Below are positions 5,283-10,523 of a DNA stretch of 17,626 nucleotides, in pieces. The notes below the pieces were generated by a model. That model worked only from the letters and a program-made list of their open reading frames with translations, searched no databases and was not told the origin of the DNA. This DNA is from Calditrichota bacterium (GTDB taxonomy: Bacteria; Calditrichota; Calditrichia; Calditrichales; Calditrichaceae), in NCBI GenBank assembly GCA_003854985.1, contig RQOG01000153.1, positions 1-17,626 on the forward strand. The letters run 5' to 3'. The position numbers and the translations under genes were made by a program. Every line of letters begins with the position of its first letter. Positions within the stretch are counted from its first letter, which is position 1.

Positions 5283-5540
5283 ATGAATAAAAAATTAACT
5301 TTATTACTTGATGAAACAATAATCAGCCAGGCCAAGGAATACGCAAGAAAACAAAATGAAACGCTTTCCGGAATGGTTGAAAAATATTTTTCCTATATAA
5401 CAACAAAAAATCCCGGAAAAGTACATATAAGTACTTCCCGTGATATTGAAGAACTTTCGGGTATAATCAAAGTTCCGGATAATTATAATATTAAAGAAGA
5501 CTATCGTCAATATCGTTCAAATCGGATTTTAAGTGAATAA
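5283..5540 (+). CDS. Type II antitoxin, ribbon-helix-helix (CopG/VapB-like).
   Basis: The ATG at 5283 (MNKKLTLLLDETIISQAKEYARKQNETLSGMVEKYF) has a GGGGTGA SD. A beta-strand then two helices is typical of RHH. It overlaps the downstream PIN gene by 8 nt (GTGAATAA). Confidence 0.6.
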   Translation: MNKKLTLLLDETIISQAKEYARKQNETLSGMVEKYFSYITTKNPGKVHISTSRDIEELSGIIKVPDNYNIKEDYRQYRSNRILSE

Positions 5541-5964
5541 ACTTTTTATTGATTCTGATATTTTAATTGATTTACTGGCCAAAAGACCGCACTATGATGA
5601 AGCGCTGGGATTATTAGCACTTATTGCAGAGAATAAGGCTAAAGCCTATACTACGCCGCTTGTGTTCGCAAACGTAGATTATATTGTTACCAAATTCGGG
5701 AACAAACAAAAATCAAGAAAAGCAATAAGAACACTTCGAAAGAATATTTCTGTTTTAACCATGAATGAAAAGATCTTTGATGAAGCTCTTGAATCTTCTT
5801 TTTCTGATTTTGAAGATGCCTTACAATATTTCTCCGCGATGAATCAGGCCGTTGACTTCATAATTACGCGAAACAAAAAGGACTATGCTGCGGGAAAACT
5901 TAAAGTACTTACAGCAGGAGAATATCTGGATATTCACTATGCAGAGCAACGCTCAAAAGGCTAA
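5533..5964 (+). CDS. PIN-domain toxin (VapC-like ribonuclease).
   Basis: GTG start. The N-terminal LFIDSDILIDLL carries the first catalytic Asp, and further acidic residues fall in FSDFEDALQYFSAM and DFIITRNKKDY. The 143-aa size and position after a small RHH gene fit a toxin. Confidence 0.75.
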   Translation: MNKLFIDSDILIDLLAKRPHYDEALGLLALIAENKAKAYTTPLVFANVDYIVTKFGNKQKSRKAIRTLRKNISVLTMNEKIFDEALESSFSDFEDALQYFSAMNQAVDFIITRNKKDYAAGKLKVLTAGEYLDIHYAEQRSKG

Positions 5965-6341
5965 ATGCTTCAGGTTAAAACCGGAAGATTTTTTATTATG
6001 GTTCAATATAGATTAAATTATGGAAAAAAATCGTTAACCGGCATACGCCTTTCCGTTTGGCCGATCAGAACATCGCCGAGTGGGAAACCCGTCTTCCGGG
6101 TGGTCTGCCTGTTTCGCCTGTCCAGGCGGCTTTATGCCTGCGTGAAATTTCCCGTACAGCCATGTTTATCAAAGGATTGGCTGGTGCTATCCGGAAAGAA
6201 ATGAGTAAAGTCCGCAAGCGCCTGTCTGCGTTTTATATGCGGGCTGCGGCCTTTATGCCTTGCTGCCCTGGCCGCTTCCAGCGTAACCACTTTTGTTTCG
6301 GGCAAATGATTCAAAATATAACAATGGCTTTCGATAGTTGA
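5965..6341. other. GC-rich non-coding island with internal imperfect direct repeats. It is a candidate structured RNA or gene remnant.
   Basis: GC content here is clearly higher than the flanking AT-rich DNA. It lies between the convergent PIN and feoB ends. Only short overlapping ORFs on both strands are present, none with a start context. CGCCTGTCy occurs at 6115 and 6219, and GCGGCyTTTATGCCTkGC at 6125 and 6247. Confidence 0.3.
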
Positions 6342-6468
6342 GTGTTAATAGTAATCGTTATCGAGAGCGGTTAAAAGTTAAAAAAAATTTTTGCTGATTG
6401 ACATTCGATACTCGGTTATACATTTTATCATGCCGAGTGCTCTGTCGACGCCTTTTTGATTCAGTCTT

Positions 6469-7851
6469 TTAAAACGAACGCACAATCTGAGCCACCAGAA
6501 AAGTGACCATAAAAGCAATAACCAGGGGCATCAGTGCTCCGATGGTGGTCCATTTGGCGCTTTTGGTTTCTTTCCAGATGGTTAAAATAGTTGTGGAACA
6601 AGGATTATGCAGTAAGGAAAACAGCATCAGATTGACAGCGGTGAGCAATGTCCAGCCGGCTTGATCGACTAATAATGATTTTAATTGCACCAGATCGCTT
6701 ATCTCAATCATCATGCCCGAATTGGTATAGCTCATGAGTATGGTGGGGACTACAATTTCATTGGCCGGAATGGCTATAATATAGGCCAGTAATATAGTGC
6801 CATCCATGCCAAGAAGATGCCCGAATGGCTGCAGGAACCGGGCAATCCACAAACTCAGGGATATGCCATCGATTGAAATATTAGCCAGCAGCCAGATGAT
6901 TCTGCCGGCTGGTGCCGCCATAATGATCGCTCGCCACAGGACAAATATGGTGCGGTCAATCAGTGATGTATAAAGAATGCGCATAATGTTTGGCTTGCGG
7001 TAAGGCGGCAGTTCCAGGGTAAAACTGCTGGCTTCCCCTTTTAAAATTGTTTTCGAAAGCGCCCAGGAAACCACGAAGGTAAAAATCACACCGAATAATA
7101 CAATACCGACCACCGATCCTGCGGCGATTATGGATGAAACTGCCGGGGGGAATGCGGCGGACACAAATACAATGGAAAGCATAATCAACGTGGGAAAACG
7201 TCCGTTGCAGGGAACGAAATTATTGGTTAAAATGGCGATCAGTCTTTCCCGCGGTGATTCGATAATCCGCGTGGCAATGACGCCGGCGGCATTACAGCCG
7301 AAGCCCATACTCATGGTCAGTGCCTGCTTGCCATGCGCGCCGGCCTTTTTAAATAACCAATCCAGATTAAAGGCTACCCGCGGCAGGTATCCGAAATCTT
7401 CCAGGATGGTAAAAATAGGGAAGAAGATGGCCATGGGCTGCAGCATCACCGCCACGACCCAGGCTAAACCGCGATATACGCCGTGTACAAAAAATCCGGT
7501 AAACCACCATGGTATATTCAGCCAATCCAAAACGGCCGCCATTTGATCTTCCAGCCAGAACAAAAAACCGGCGATCATCTGCGAAGGATAATTAGCCCCG
7601 ACAATGGTCACCCAGAATACTCCCATTAAAAGCAAAAACATGATGGGAAGTCCCCAGATGGGAGAGGTAAGAATACGATCGATTTTTAGGTCCAAATCGT
7701 ATTTGCGCTGTGAAGAGATATTCAATACTTTTGAACTGATTGTTTCCACATCTTTATAAATATCAATTACCATTATATCGCGGAAATTATCGTCCAGTCC
7801 TGAACGTACCTTGTTTGCTTTCTGGATAAGTTTCTTACCTGCCGAATTCAT
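6469..7851 (-). CDS. feoB: Ferrous iron transporter FeoB, C-terminal permease portion (nucleoside-recognition/gate domains).
   Basis: A 460-aa polytopic membrane protein. It starts with the FeoB linker KIDRILTSPIWGLPIMFLLLMGVF and then carries the paired FeoB membrane modules. Its ATG overlaps the stop of the G-domain ORF (ATGA), and AGGGGA sits 7 nt upstream. Confidence 0.85.
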   Translation of the reverse strand: MNSAGKKLIQKANKVRSGLDDNFRDIMVIDIYKDVETISSKVLNISSQRKYDLDLKIDRILTSPIWGLPIMFLLLMGVFWVTIVGANYPSQMIAGFLFWLEDQMAAVLDWLNIPWWFTGFFVHGVYRGLAWVVAVMLQPMAIFFPIFTILEDFGYLPRVAFNLDWLFKKAGAHGKQALTMSMGFGCNAAGVIATRIIESPRERLIAILTNNFVPCNGRFPTLIMLSIVFVSAAFPPAVSSIIAAGSVVGIVLFGVIFTFVVSWALSKTILKGEASSFTLELPPYRKPNIMRILYTSLIDRTIFVLWRAIIMAAPAGRIIWLLANISIDGISLSLWIARFLQPFGHLLGMDGTILLAYIIAIPANEIVVPTILMSYTNSGMMIEISDLVQLKSLLVDQAGWTLLTAVNLMLFSLLHNPCSTTILTIWKETKSAKWTTIGALMPLVIAFMVTFLVAQIVRSF

Positions 7852-8675
7852 AATGCCGTCCCCTGATCTTTTTGAGACGGACGGTCAAATATTGATTCGC
7901 CCAGAAATACATTCCATTCACCTTTTTCTATGGCTTTTTGCACCTTGATATCCCCATCGAGTAAGCGCATGGCTACCCAGCGCGGATTGGGCATATCGGG
8001 GAAAATCGTTTTGATTTCAGGAACCAGTTCATCCAGCGATTTTTTAATTTTATCACTGACCACAATACGGTGCGGTTTGGTTTTAATAATTCCGTCAATC
8101 ACATCGATTACTGCCTGAATGAGCTGACCTAAACCCTGTCCACTTCTGGCCACGGTTGGTATGACCGGCACGCCCAGTTCTTTTGAAAGCTGCGTATGAG
8201 ATACATCGATCCCTTTACGTTTAGCCTCATCAACCAGGTTAAGAGCTATGACCACTTTATTGGTAATCTCCAGAATCTGCAGGGTAAGATTCAGATTACG
8301 TTCCAGAACAGAGGCATCCACCACTATAATCGTGCAGTCCGGTTGACCAAAAAGTAGAAAATCCCTGGCAATTTCTTCATCAACGGATGCGGATAATAGT
8401 GAATATGTACCCGGCAGATCGACCAGTTTAAAGGATCTGCCACCCCATTTGAATCCACCTTCGGCACGGGTCACGGTTTTGCCGGGCCAGTTGCCGGTAT
8501 GCTGTTTTAAACCGGTTAAACTGTTAAAAACTGTACTTTTACCTGTATTGGGATTTCCGGCAAGCGCCACTACATGATCGATTTTATCAATTTCGATACC
8601 CAACCTTTTCAAATTGAAGCTGCAGGTATCGCAGACATTACCGGGAATAAGTCTGTTCTTTTTCTTGCGTTCCAT
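7848..8675 (-). CDS. feoB: FeoB N-terminal GTPase (G domain plus part of the helical/GDI domain) as a separate ORF.
   Basis: G1 GNPNTGKST, G3 DLPGT, G4 NLVD and G5 SGQG are all present. There is a roughly 30-aa N-terminal extension containing CDTC. GGAGAT SD sits 7 nt upstream of the ATG. Confidence 0.85.
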   Translation of the reverse strand: MERKKKNRLIPGNVCDTCSFNLKRLGIEIDKIDHVVALAGNPNTGKSTVFNSLTGLKQHTGNWPGKTVTRAEGGFKWGGRSFKLVDLPGTYSLLSASVDEEIARDFLLFGQPDCTIIVVDASVLERNLNLTLQILEITNKVVIALNLVDEAKRKGIDVSHTQLSKELGVPVIPTVARSGQGLGQLIQAVIDVIDGIIKTKPHRIVVSDKIKKSLDELVPEIKTIFPDMPNPRWVAMRLLDGDIKVQKAIEKGEWNVFLGESIFDRPSQKDQGTAL

Positions 8676-8691
8676 TAAAGATCTCCATCGT

Positions 8692-8707
8692 AAGAATATT
8701 AATTCTT
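8692..8707 (-). promoter_or_regulatory. A 16-bp palindrome (AAGAAT-ATTA-ATTCTT) immediately upstream of the feoB RBS. It is a candidate operator.
   Basis: The 6-bp arms are perfect. It lies in the 74-nt gap between the FeoA-fused regulator and feoB. The 10-mer AGAATATTAA also occurs upstream of the first dtxR-like gene (minus strand, + coordinates 10538-10547). Confidence 0.3.
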
Positions 8708-8749
8708 CTTTTCCTCATTTGATGTACCTGAAATGCTTTCCTTTGCGTT

Positions 8750-9736
8750 TCAGAATTTTTCAATAAAAATATTTCCGGCCTGTTTTTTACGTAAAGCGAT
8801 TTTAGCCCCACGGATGGAATAAGCCACCGGATCACCGCCAAATGAGCTGACTATAGCTTTGGTTATTTTTGCCCCTGGTGTAATACCCAGATCCAATATT
8901 CGCCTTCTGGCCAAACCCTGTATATCCGGTGAGAGGCCGATAACAATACCTGTTTCATTGGCAGACAGGTCCAACAGGCTTTTATTTTTCCTTGTTATCC
9001 CGCCCGTATAAGCAACCACATGAATATTTAGTGCTTCAAAAGTACTCAGAATCTGTTCCTTATCTTCAAATTTTATTGTAATTTTACAATCCTGCTTATC
9101 CGTAATTTTAATAAGCTGTTGAGGACGCAATCCCAACTTAAACAGTTTTTTACTGATATTATAGGGTTCATCTTCAATGTGATGAATCAATGCCTGATCC
9201 CCGGTAGTTAATTCGGTTACTGCCCGGATCTCTGTTTTTTTAATCCTGTGATCGATCGTCGGAATGGGATCACCATGCGGATCAATGGTTGGAAATCCGA
9301 GATGGACGTTTAATGCTTCCAGTCTGTCGCCCCGCAGATCATGTTCCATGTTTTCGGCCATACGGTGTATCTGGTGTATTGGCAGGTCTGTTTCCCTCCC
9401 CAGATAGGTTTCCCATAAACGATGAGCCCGGATAATTTCAATTACAACAGGTCGTCCTTCCGCTTTAAGCTCAATCCCTGTGGAAGTCATCCGGATCAAT
9501 CCTTTATTTTCCAGTTGATCCAAAATCCGGTAAATTTTATTTACCGATAATGATAGGGCACCTTTAAGACTTTCCACTGAGGCCGGTAATCCACGTTCAT
9601 TCCTGTGAAAAATAAACTTTAAGGCATCCTCATAATAAATACGGGTAAGTTTATTGTTGTAAGTTTTATCACGTTTGTAATAATAAATACCCAGGCCTGT
9701 AATTATAATTCCAAAAATAATATAATAAATCATCAT
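8750..9736 (-). CDS. Membrane-anchored DtxR-family metalloregulator with an extra C-terminal FeoA domain (TM, HTH, metal/dimerisation domain, SH3-like/FeoA, FeoA).
   Basis: Residues 1-21 (MMIYYIIFGIIITGLGIYYYK) form a hydrophobic helix. A winged-helix region and RAHRLWETYL...HQIHRMAENMEH...FPTIDPHGDPIP follow the DtxR N-domain pattern, then two SH3-like repeats. The second repeat (LGITPGAKI...GGDPVAYSIRGAKIALRKKQAGNIFI) is a textbook FeoA. Confidence 0.75.
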   Translation of the reverse strand: MMIYYIIFGIIITGLGIYYYKRDKTYNNKLTRIYYEDALKFIFHRNERGLPASVESLKGALSLSVNKIYRILDQLENKGLIRMTSTGIELKAEGRPVVIEIIRAHRLWETYLGRETDLPIHQIHRMAENMEHDLRGDRLEALNVHLGFPTIDPHGDPIPTIDHRIKKTEIRAVTELTTGDQALIHHIEDEPYNISKKLFKLGLRPQQLIKITDKQDCKITIKFEDKEQILSTFEALNIHVVAYTGGITRKNKSLLDLSANETGIVIGLSPDIQGLARRRILDLGITPGAKITKAIVSSFGGDPVAYSIRGAKIALRKKQAGNIFIEKF

Positions 9737-9754
9737 CTACCTGTTTAATATATG

Positions 9755-10411
9755 TTATTTAATAATTACTATAATTCCTTCCGCCATTTTACCTGAAAGC
9801 GACAAAAACTGTTTTCCATTAGTCAGCAGAAAGCTCGATTTACCAGGAGATAAATCGACCAACTCCCATACCGATCCTATCTTAAACTTTCTTTCAGTGA
9901 GGTAGTTCTCCGCTTTTGTATCCAGGTTTAGTTCATCTATTGTGAACATTAATCCGGTCTTCAAAGATTTAAGAACATGTTTTTTAATTTTTATGTCCAG
10001 GCAGGGAATTGATGAACCGTGCGGATCAACTGTTGGAAAATCCAGATATTTGTCGATATGATGCATCAGTTGATCGGAGACCACATGTTCCAATCGTTCA
10101 GCCTCTTCATGTAATAACTGACCGTCAAGTTTCAATACTTTTTCCAGAAAGGATTCGATCAAACGGTGTTTGCGAACCAGCCTAAGGGCAATCTGCTTCC
10201 CGGCATCTGTAAGACAGGCTCCATCCGATTTATTGTAATCAATAAGGCTTATTTTACACAATTGTTGAAACATGGATAGCACTGTAGGTGGTTTGACCTT
10301 ATATAATTCCGAAACCCTTTTTGCTGTCGCTTTACTATTTTTATCATTGATATACCAGATTAATTTTAGATAATCTTCCTGGCTGGGTGTTAATTTTGTA
10401 AACGAATTCAT
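9755..10411 (-). CDS. DtxR/IdeR/MntR-family metal-dependent transcriptional repressor with the usual C-terminal SH3-like domain.
   Basis: SQEDYLKLIW, RKHRLIESFL, HEEAERLEH and FPTVDPHG match the DtxR family. It lies 18 nt upstream of the next gene. Confidence 0.8.
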   Translation of the reverse strand: MNSFTKLTPSQEDYLKLIWYINDKNSKATAKRVSELYKVKPPTVLSMFQQLCKISLIDYNKSDGACLTDAGKQIALRLVRKHRLIESFLEKVLKLDGQLLHEEAERLEHVVSDQLMHHIDKYLDFPTVDPHGSSIPCLDIKIKKHVLKSLKTGLMFTIDELNLDTKAENYLTERKFKIGSVWELVDLSPGKSSFLLTNGKQFLSLSGKMAEGIIVIIK

Positions 10412-10523
10412 AAAGTTAGATATACCTACTTTAAAATAAGATTGCTCTAATTTATATTGTTTTTAAGAAAATGCAATTGTTTTTTTATGACCCGGGTAAA
10501 AAAATTGTTAATTATATTTCTCC

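What the first reader, a model, noticed from the sequence alone, without database searches (positions are those of the whole stretch)
5965..6341. GC-rich non-coding island of about 380 nt with internal direct repeats between convergent genes
Flanking intergenic DNA is strongly AT-rich, yet this stretch is GC-rich. It has no ORF with a credible start or SD; the overlapping 60-94 codon ORFs on both strands look like compositional artefacts. It contains two copies each of CGCCTGTCy (6115, 6219) and GCGGCyTTTATGCCTkGC (6125, 6247), plus a tight hairpin CGCCTG-TC-CAGGCG at 6115-6128. GC-rich islands in AT-rich genomes are a classic signature of structured non-coding RNAs; alternatively this could be a decayed gene fragment or a repeat-family element. 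I could not match RNase P, tmRNA, SRP or 6S RNA sequence motifs by eye.
Basis: seen in the sequence. Interest (0 to 1): 0.55.

Follow-up and report, generated by a model that had tools for sequence, protein, structure and literature searches.

The report
Dead methyltransferase gene fragment, not RNA
The GC-rich stretch is the leftover quarter of a broken methyltransferase gene, cut off at both ends and frameshifted, so it is an ordinary pseudogene and not a structured RNA.

Summary
The GC-rich island is real: 6036-6300 is 54.7% GC in a 42% GC contig whose other spacers are 23-39%. It is not an RNA gene. Rfam gives nothing, folding is no better than shuffled sequence, and the flagged repeats and "hairpin" are at chance level. 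A metagenome scan found an intact 342-aa gene in a Candidatus Scalindua contig. Residues 36-96 of that protein match window 6027-6209 at 62% identity. Residues 100-119 match 6218-6277 in the next reading frame at 70% identity (joint E 2e-22). A profile of 110 family members hits only these two stretches in the whole window (E 6.7e-18 and 1.1e-6), covering profile positions 34-117 of 342. Restoring one base gives a gapless 84-aa alignment (64% identity, E 7e-36). Differences from intact homologues fall mainly on third codon positions. The parent family has no Pfam model, and its predicted fold resembles protein arginine methyltransferases. The fragment lacks about 33 N-terminal and 225 C-terminal codons. 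The annotated 94-aa "hypothetical protein" (6057-6341) is a by-product of the frameshift. Interest is low.

The parts
5965..6023 (.). AT-rich spacer after the PIN toxin stop codon. It is the left truncation boundary of the gene remnant.
   Evidence: 5965-6035 is 25.4% GC. The family profile finds nothing here in any frame. The imperfect inverted repeat 5987-6032 folds at -13.3 kcal/mol, z -1.58, which is not significant.
6024..6209 (+). Pseudogene segment A. It is homologous to residues about 34-98 of a 342-aa PRMT-like class I SAM-dependent methyltransferase family and lies in the frame of the annotated 94-aa ORF.
   Evidence: tblastn with P0133 gives residues 36-96 = window 6027-6209 at 62% identity and 84% positives. 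The family HMM matches positions 34-98 with E 6.7e-18. phmmer with this segment alone finds 16 non-self proteins at E <= 1e-3 among 1.8 billion. Differences from L093 by codon position are 23/5/34.
6205..6217 (+). Frameshift site, a one-base deletion relative to intact homologues.
   Evidence: Homology moves to the next frame between 6209 and 6218. Reading base 6209 twice gives a gapless 84-aa alignment to P0134 (64% identity, E 7e-36) and to P0133. The second frame has a TGA just upstream at 6202-6204.
6209..6283 (+). Pseudogene segment B. It is homologous to residues about 96-119 and contains the glycine-rich SAM-binding motif (VLYAGCGLYALL). It ends at a TAA stop at 6284-6286.
   Evidence: tblastn gives residues 100-119 = window 6218-6277 at 70% identity. 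The HMM matches positions 96-117 with E 1.1e-6. Differences from L093 by codon position are 4/4/16.
6057..6341 (+). Annotated 94-aa 'hypothetical protein' (MBN2426189.1, MBN2709713.1, RQV92542.1). It is a chimeric ORF: the first 51 aa are the remnant, and the last 43 aa are read out of frame and beyond the homology.
   Evidence: A gene is called here in L001 and the accessions come. Only residues 1-51 match homologues. The codon score is 0.027. The start codon is TTG with no purine-rich stretch upstream.
6284..6468 (.). AT-rich spacer between the remnant and the feoB stop codon. It is the right truncation boundary; about 225 codons of the parent gene are missing.
   Evidence: 6301-6468 is 34.5% GC. 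No profile hit below E about 50 in any frame. No significant fold, z +0.31. Synteny with sister species starts only at 6481.
5283..5964 (+). Left neighbour: a DUF6364 antitoxin-like gene and a PIN toxin gene. This low-GC toxin-antitoxin pair probably marks an accessory insertion.
   Evidence: Pfam gives PF19891 at 3.2e-19 and PF13470 at 2.7e-15. GC is 30-36%.
6469..7851 (-). Right neighbour: the feoB membrane (C-terminal) gene, convergent with the remnant.
   Evidence: Pfam finds the Gate and FeoB_C domains. The gene is conserved at 76% DNA identity with sister species, starting at 6481.

Best explanation
The GC-rich core (about 6024-6283, + strand) is a non-functional relic of a protein-coding gene. 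The parent gene belonged to a family of about 340-aa class I SAM-dependent methyltransferases. That family has no Pfam model, and its predicted fold resembles protein arginine methyltransferases.

Only the part corresponding to residues about 34-119 of 342 survives. This part covers the N-terminal helices, the first beta-strand and the glycine-rich SAM-binding motif. A one-base deletion near 6205-6215 splits it into two reading frames.

The first 33 or so codons, the promoter and the last 225 or so codons are gone. The missing 3' part includes the rest of the Rossmann domain, the conserved acidic loop and the beta-barrel.

The high GC content, the 'repeats' and the palindrome are residues of former coding sequence. 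They encode conserved family motifs: ISPxxAA, AAxCxRE and LYAGCGPYALL.

Shown: the homology, its extent, the frameshift, the truncation, the codon-periodic divergence, and the absence of RNA signals.

Inferred: the gene was lost through rearrangements in a variable accessory region, next to a toxin-antitoxin insertion and at the break of synteny beside the feo operon. Also inferred: the annotated 94-aa ORF makes no functional product, and the gene may have come from a GC-richer donor.
For: Finding the parent gene:
- A metagenome scan with the ORF found one locus, L093, with an intact 342-aa ORF.
- tblastn of that protein against the window matches residues 36-96 to 6027-6209 (62% identity) and residues 100-119 to 6218-6277 in another frame (70% identity), with joint E 2e-22. 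Every other hit in the 17.6 kb has E >= 3.
- The family has 193 members at E <= 1e-3, typically 335-360 aa.

Extent and frameshift:
- An HMM built from 110 members and run against all six frames of the window hits only these two stretches: E 6.7e-18 for positions 34-98 and E 1.1e-6 for positions 96-117. The next best hit has E 2.9.
- The frameshift-corrected peptide aligns without gaps to all 120 listed members. The best is 64% identity over 84 aa, E 7e-36.
- A filter-free phmmer search with the 66 in-frame residues alone against 1.84 billion proteins gives 16 non-self hits, with E from 3.8e-8 to 7e-4. All fall at about residues 33-103 of proteins mostly 330-600 aa long.

Signs of coding ancestry and decay:
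- Differences from intact homologues by codon position are 23/5/34 and 4/4/16. The intact-versus-intact comparison gives 18/16/47.
- 5 of the 30 columns that are >= 90% conserved in the family are changed in the fragment. 109 of 110 intact members have 3 or fewer changes at those columns.

No RNA signal:
- No Rfam match and no excess fold stability.

Parent family fold:
- The AlphaFold2 model has pLDDT 91.7 and pTM 0.90. Foldseek matches PRMT7, PRMT9, CARM1 and PRMT1 at E 7e-11 to 4e-9 with TM about 0.5.
Against: No intact orthologue from a close relative was found, so the time and mechanism of inactivation are not shown. The nearest homologue is only 64% identical.

No transcript data were available, so expression of the remnant or of the 94-aa ORF cannot be excluded.

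The sequence is identical in three assemblies. These look like the same population, so this says little about selection.

AlphaFold2 gives the 94-aa ORF a confident long helix (pLDDT about 90 for residues 21-60). That segment is also helical in the intact protein, so the result fits a relic as well as a real small protein.
Confidence: 0.93

Rival explanations
1. The 94-aa ORF (6057-6341) is a real small protein, as annotated in GenBank. It would be a domesticated N-terminal piece of the methyltransferase with a new C-terminal tail.
For: Gene callers predict it, and three GenBank accessions exist. The frame is open for 109 codons. AlphaFold2 predicts a confident helix for residues 21-65.
Against: The start codon is TTG with no ribosome-binding stretch upstream. 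The codon score is 0.027 against 0.10-0.26 for real genes. No protein in 5.8 billion or 1.8 billion sequences shares the C-terminal 43 residues. The next family motif continues in the other frame straight after the shift, which is the mark of a frameshift and not of a new gene. Five conserved positions have been lost.
Confidence: 0.04
2. The stretch is a structured non-coding RNA. This could be a new family or a small RNA at the 3' end of feoB or of the toxin-antitoxin operon.
For: The stretch is GC-rich relative to the neighbouring spacers and lies in a non-coding position between convergent genes.
Against: No Rfam hit at gathering score, and the best E-values are 3.5-7.9. The minimum free energy is no better than shuffles, z -0.47 and -1.09. 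No promoter-like or terminator-like sites were found. All detectable conservation is at the protein level with codon periodicity. The region is absent from sister species.
Confidence: 0.02
3. The gene is intact in the organism, and the frameshift and truncation are assembly or sequencing errors.
For: These are metagenome-assembled genomes, and a single-base indel is a common type of error.
Against: The 541-nt region is identical in three assemblies, one of them an independent Logan assembly of a sequencing run. Even with the frame restored, only 84 of 342 codons are present. The flanks (PIN stop at 5964, feoB stop at 6469) leave no room for the missing 258 or so codons.
Confidence: 0.01

Closest known systems
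Uncharacterised bacterial class I SAM-dependent methyltransferase family typified by P0133 (Candidatus Scalindua HON76_14130, 342 aa). Members are annotated 'hypothetical protein', 'class I SAM-dependent methyltransferase' or 'predicted RNA methylase', and the family has no Pfam model.
   Same: The window fragment is homologous to family positions 34-117, with up to 64% identity and profile E 6.7e-18 and 1.1e-6. It keeps 25 of 30 highly conserved residues, including the YAGCG SAM-binding motif.
   Different: Only a quarter of the gene is present. It is frameshifted, has no start and lacks the whole catalytic and beta-barrel part. It is therefore a pseudogene of the family and not a functional member.
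Protein arginine methyltransferases (PRMT1, CARM1, PRMT7, PRMT9), a class I Rossmann domain followed by a beta-barrel
   Same: The parent family's AlphaFold2 model (pLDDT 91.7) matches PRMT structures over its full length (Foldseek E 7e-11 to 4e-9, probability 1.00, TM about 0.5). The family has two invariant glutamates, E181 and E190, nine residues apart in an 'SETM...NEP' segment. From my own knowledge, this is the spacing of the PRMT double-E loop (E144 and E153 of rat PRMT1).
   Different: Sequence identity is 12-16%, rmsd is 8-14 A, and no PRMT Pfam or NCBIfam model is hit. No activity is known. None of the catalytic part survives in the window.
Short annotated 'hypothetical protein' ORFs created by frameshifted or truncated pseudogenes in metagenome-assembled genomes
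   Same: Automated annotation called the longest open frame across the relic as a 94-aa protein with no homologues.
   Different: Nothing unusual. This is the typical case.

Membership tests
P0133-like class I SAM-dependent methyltransferase family (about 340 aa) | Significant sequence match to the family profile | tested here: met
   An HMM of 110 members gives E 6.7e-18 (positions 34-98) and E 1.1e-6 (positions 96-117). phmmer against 1.84 billion proteins gives E down to 3.8e-8.
P0133-like class I SAM-dependent methyltransferase family (about 340 aa) | Full-length open reading frame covering the Rossmann domain and the C-terminal beta-barrel | tested here: not met
   Only profile positions 34-117 of 342 are present. 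No hit to positions 1-33 or 118-342 exists anywhere in the window.
P0133-like class I SAM-dependent methyltransferase family (about 340 aa) | Uninterrupted reading frame | tested here: not met
   The frame changes between 6209 and 6218. One added base restores a gapless alignment.
P0133-like class I SAM-dependent methyltransferase family (about 340 aa) | Invariant glutamates E181 and E190 and the other conserved C-terminal residues | tested here: not met
   These columns are invariant in alignment A3. The corresponding DNA is absent from the window.
Structured non-coding RNA (any Rfam family, or a new one) | Match to a covariance model at the gathering score | tested here: not met
   There were 0 matches in the whole window. 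The best sub-threshold hits score 17-18 bits, E 3.5-7.9.
Structured non-coding RNA (any Rfam family, or a new one) | A fold more stable than composition-matched shuffles | tested here: not met
   z is -0.47 on the + strand and -1.09 on the - strand for 6030-6345.
Structured non-coding RNA (any Rfam family, or a new one) | Conservation pattern driven by base pairing (covariation) | tested here: not met
   The only homologous sequences are protein-coding genes. Differences fall 23/5/34 and 4/4/16 over codon positions 1/2/3.
Repeat-family element (REP, MITE or similar) | Multiple copies in the genome or in relatives, with terminal repeats | tested here: not met
   No second copy exists in the window or in about 90 related loci. 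The internal repeats are at chance level. The rest of the genome could not be scanned.
Protein arginine methyltransferases (applies to the parent family, not to the fragment) | Rossmann plus beta-barrel architecture with a double-E loop | tested here: inconclusive
   Fold match to PRMT7, PRMT9, CARM1 and PRMT1 at E about 1e-10 but TM about 0.5. The invariant glutamates E181 and E190 are nine residues apart. Their equivalence to the PRMT double-E loop rests on my own knowledge and was not aligned here.

The most novel reading that the evidence does not exclude
The relic is kept because it is used. One version is that the 94-aa ORF, which carries the N-terminal helical cofactor-lid of a PRMT-like enzyme, is expressed as a small protein. 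Another is that a transcript through the relic acts on the converging feoB or toxin-antitoxin messages. Nothing found here points to either version. They are simply not excluded without expression data.
Probability: 0.03. Interest if true: 0.35.

Novelty: new member of a known kind. Interest (0 to 1): 0.1.

Why it matters
It matters little for biology. This is an ordinary gene relic in a variable region of a Calditrichaceae metagenome-assembled genome.

It has two practical lessons.
- In an AT-rich genome, a GC-rich 'non-coding' island can be former coding sequence and not a structured RNA.
- The GenBank entries for the 94-aa 'hypothetical protein' (MBN2426189.1, MBN2709713.1, RQV92542.1) should be read as a pseudogene.

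The side observation is of more interest than the relic. The parent family is a widespread, unnamed bacterial methyltransferase family with a PRMT-like predicted fold, and in the loci examined it sits among toxin-antitoxin genes.

Tried and rejected
- Rfam, at gathering score on the whole window and at E-value threshold on 5800-6600: only noise.
- tRNA and tmRNA scan: none found.
- RNA folding of both strands of 6030-6345 and of the flanking spacers: no better than shuffles.
- Promoter and terminator scan of 5700-6700: none found.
- Pfam on the three overlapping ORFs: no hits.
- First word-indexed protein search with the 109-codon open frame: found only itself. This was a false negative, because the later metagenome scan and the filter-free phmmer search found the family.
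- Synteny through feoB: 80 genome loci and contigs of the sister species with 89-90% identical FeoB. Conservation stops at the feoB stop codon. The sister species carry an unrelated 119-aa membrane-protein gene there, which has no similarity to the region.
- Synteny through the left flank: the 90%-identity clusters of the cupin, HD, PIN and antitoxin proteins hold no useful relatives.
- Search for further remnants of the gene in 5965-6023 and 6284-6468, in all frames: nothing found.
- PADLOC defence models on the parent family: one weak generic hit to the SAM-binding region of mad2 for one member only.
- PDB sequence search with the family profile: only marginal hits to leucine carboxyl methyltransferase, E about 0.05.
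- Literature search for bacterial PRMT-like enzymes: nothing pertinent.

Full report
**Setting**

The window is a complete 17,626-bp contig of a Calditrichaceae metagenome-assembled genome. Its FeoB C-terminal protein is MBN2426190.1, which is recorded on a 17,626-bp contig. The same locus occurs base for base in GCA_016937055.1 (L001) and in a Logan assembly of SRR13394437 (L002).

The finding lies in a 504-nt gap between two convergent genes:
- a DUF6364/PIN toxin-antitoxin pair at 5283-5964 on the + strand;
- the membrane part of a split feoB at 6469-7851 on the - strand.

**Checking the observation**

The contig is 42.2% GC. The stated interval is not uniform:
- 5965-6035 is 25% GC.
- 6036-6300 is 54.7% GC, in the top 0.3% of all 265-nt windows of the contig.
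- 6301-6468 is 34.5% GC.
- The other spacers in the contig are 23-39% GC.

So the GC island is real and is unlike normal intergenic DNA here.

The repeats are weaker than described.
- The repeat finder reports only one exact 10-mer, CTTTATGCCT, in two copies.
- The two longer 'copies' differ by indels.
- Dinucleotide shuffles give a 10-mer or longer repeat 8% of the time.
- Shuffles reach the observed best gapped self-alignment in 10 of 200 trials.

The palindrome CGCCTG-TC-CAGGCG would need a 2-nt loop. It is not part of the minimum-energy fold.

**Testing the RNA reading**

- Rfam finds nothing at gathering score in the whole window. It finds only 17-18-bit noise at E 3.5-7.9 around the region.
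- There are no tRNA or tmRNA genes.
- Folding 6030-6345 gives z -0.47 on the + strand and -1.09 on the - strand against shuffles.
- No promoter-like or terminator-like sites are found.

**Testing the coding reading**

Early results were ambiguous.
- The longest open frame (6012-6341, called as a 94-aa gene from a TTG at 6057) has a codon-usage score of 0.02-0.05. Real genes in the contig score 0.10-0.26, and no other frame does better.
- Pfam finds nothing in the overlapping ORFs.
- A word-indexed search of 5.8 billion proteins returned only the ORF itself. This later proved to be a false negative.
- AlphaFold2 on the single ORF sequence predicts a confident long helix and little else.

**Comparative context**

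I fetched 80 genome loci through FeoB and contigs of a sister species with 89-90% identical FeoB. DNA conservation with the sister species covers only 6481-10490, which is the feo operon, at about 76% identity. It stops at the feoB stop codon.

Downstream of feoB, the sister species carry an unrelated 119-aa membrane-protein gene. More distant Calditrichota relatives carry a convergent 733-aa ORF or chemotaxis genes instead. Nothing in these loci resembles the region at the DNA or protein level. The region therefore sits in a variable, lineage-specific spot.

**The decisive result**

Scanning JGI metagenome contigs with peptide patterns from the 94-aa ORF returned one locus. This is L093, a 223-kb contig attributed to Candidatus Scalindua, where the match lies inside an intact 342-aa ORF.

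tblastn of that protein against the window gives two collinear pieces with joint E 2e-22:
- residues 36-96 match 6027-6209 at 62% identity and 84% positives;
- residues 100-119 match 6218-6277 in the adjacent reading frame at 70% identity.

All other hits in the window have E >= 3.

The protein belongs to a family of at least 193 proteins, mostly 335-360 aa. I built a profile from 110 members and searched, without filters, every open stretch of all six frames of the window. It hits only these two stretches:
- E 6.7e-18 for profile positions 34-98;
- E 1.1e-6 for profile positions 96-117;
- the next best hit has E 2.9.

Reading base 6209 twice simulates restoring one deleted base. This yields a 91-aa peptide that aligns without gaps to the family. 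The best match is 64% identity over 84 aa, E 7e-36, and all 120 listed members are hit.

As an independent check, I ran a filter-free phmmer search of 1.84 billion representative proteins with the 66 in-frame residues alone. It gives 16 non-self hits with whole-library E from 3.8e-8 to 7e-4. All lie at about residues 33-103 of proteins mostly 330-600 aa long.

**Nature of the similarity**

Differences between the fragment and the intact Scalindua gene fall 23/5/34 (segment A) and 4/4/16 (segment B) on codon positions 1/2/3. Two intact genes compared with each other give 18/16/47. The sequence therefore evolved as a protein-coding gene.

Of the 30 family columns conserved at >= 90% that the fragment covers, five are changed: L34W, G54W, A63P, P111L and A116P. 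By contrast, 109 of 110 intact members have three or fewer such changes. This fits relaxed constraint after inactivation, although lineage divergence could contribute.

All three flagged features are stretches that encode conserved family motifs.
- The palindrome at 6115-6128 encodes the family's ISPxxAA stretch.
- The first 'repeat' copy at 6126 encodes the conserved AAxCxRE stretch.
- The second copy at 6247 encodes, in the shifted frame, the glycine-rich SAM-binding motif LYAGCGPYALL.

Their resemblance to each other is coincidental.

**What the parent gene was**

The family has no Pfam model. It has only weak, generic matches to known methyltransferases:
- SAM-methyltransferase Pfam models such as Methyltransf_25, best E 0.0015, in 10 of 32 members;
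- the RlmC NCBIfam model, E 6.7e-5, far below its cut-off;
- leucine carboxyl methyltransferase in the PDB, E about 0.05.

An AlphaFold2 model built from a 32-sequence alignment is confident (pLDDT 91.7, pTM 0.90). It shows a Rossmann domain followed by a beta-rich domain.

Foldseek against the PDB ranks protein arginine methyltransferases first: PRMT7, PRMT9, CARM1, PRMT1 and PRMT5. E-values run from 7e-11 to 4e-9 and TM is about 0.5.

The family alignment has invariant glutamates E181 and E190. From my own knowledge, nine residues is the spacing of the PRMT double-E loop. I did not test this equivalence. None of this catalytic part is present in the window.

**Interpretation**

The region holds the middle-N-terminal quarter of a dead gene. 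Homology begins at about 6024 and ends at about 6283, and it is bounded by AT-rich DNA on both sides. About 33 codons and the promoter are missing upstream. About 225 codons are missing downstream. One base is missing inside.

I infer that the gene was destroyed by rearrangements in an accessory region. Three observations support this:
- The left neighbour is a low-GC toxin-antitoxin pair.
- Synteny with relatives breaks on the right at feoB.
- Intact family members in other organisms also sit among toxin-antitoxin genes: HigB-like in L093, and Phd/YefM, BrnT/BrnA and ImmA/DUF4411 in L094.

The fragment's 55% GC compares with 45% for the same segment of the Scalindua gene and 42% for the host contig. 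This hints at acquisition from a GC-richer donor, but that is speculation.

The 94-aa 'hypothetical protein' in GenBank is the longest open frame across the relic. Its first 51 residues are genuine family sequence. Its last 43 are an out-of-frame read-through.

**Verdict**

The island is real, while the repeats and the hairpin are not meaningful.
- The RNA interpretation is not supported.
- This is an ordinary pseudogene and interest is low.

Noticed in passing
L093:7866-8894, L094:6001-7029 (parent family; P0133-P0252): The parent family is an unnamed bacterial family of at least 193 proteins of about 340 aa with no Pfam model. It has a confident predicted fold resembling protein arginine methyltransferases and two invariant glutamates nine residues apart. 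It occurs in Scalindua, Gallionella, Sideroxydans, Methylobacter, Rhodocyclaceae and Kapabacteria. In the two loci examined it lies among toxin-antitoxin genes. Some members are fused to APS kinase (PF01583: P0140, P0143) or to an Asp/Arg hydroxylase domain (PF05118: P0194, P0202, P0242).
   Followed up: partly
window 6469-8675 (-): FeoB is encoded as two genes, a GTPase part (7848-8675, 275 aa) and a membrane part (6469-7851, 460 aa), overlapping by 4 nt. Thousands of proteins match the membrane part strongly, and most of the best 120, about 460 aa long and from many phyla, carry only its domains. The split is therefore a natural arrangement and not a pseudogene.
   Followed up: partly
window 6481-10490: The feo operon (DtxR-like regulator, DtxR-C/FeoA fusion, FeoB-N, FeoB-C) is the only block conserved at the DNA level with the sister species, at about 76% identity. 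Synteny breaks at both ends, exactly at the feoB stop codon on one side. The operon therefore sits between variable regions.
   Followed up: partly
window 5283-5964 (+): The DUF6364/PIN toxin-antitoxin pair has 30-36% GC against 42% for the contig. This suggests a recently acquired cassette directly next to the gene relic.
   Followed up: no
window 6012-6338: The word-indexed protein search returned no homologue for the ORF, although a 9-residue exact word (RTAMFIKGL) is shared with P0133. A negative result from that tool on a short query should not be taken as showing that homologues are absent.
   Followed up: yes
window 8750-9736 (-): A 328-aa protein combines a DtxR-type C-terminal domain (Fe_dep_repr_C) with FeoA. 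It lies next to a separate 218-aa DtxR-like repressor (9755-10411). The pair is conserved in the sister species.
   Followed up: no
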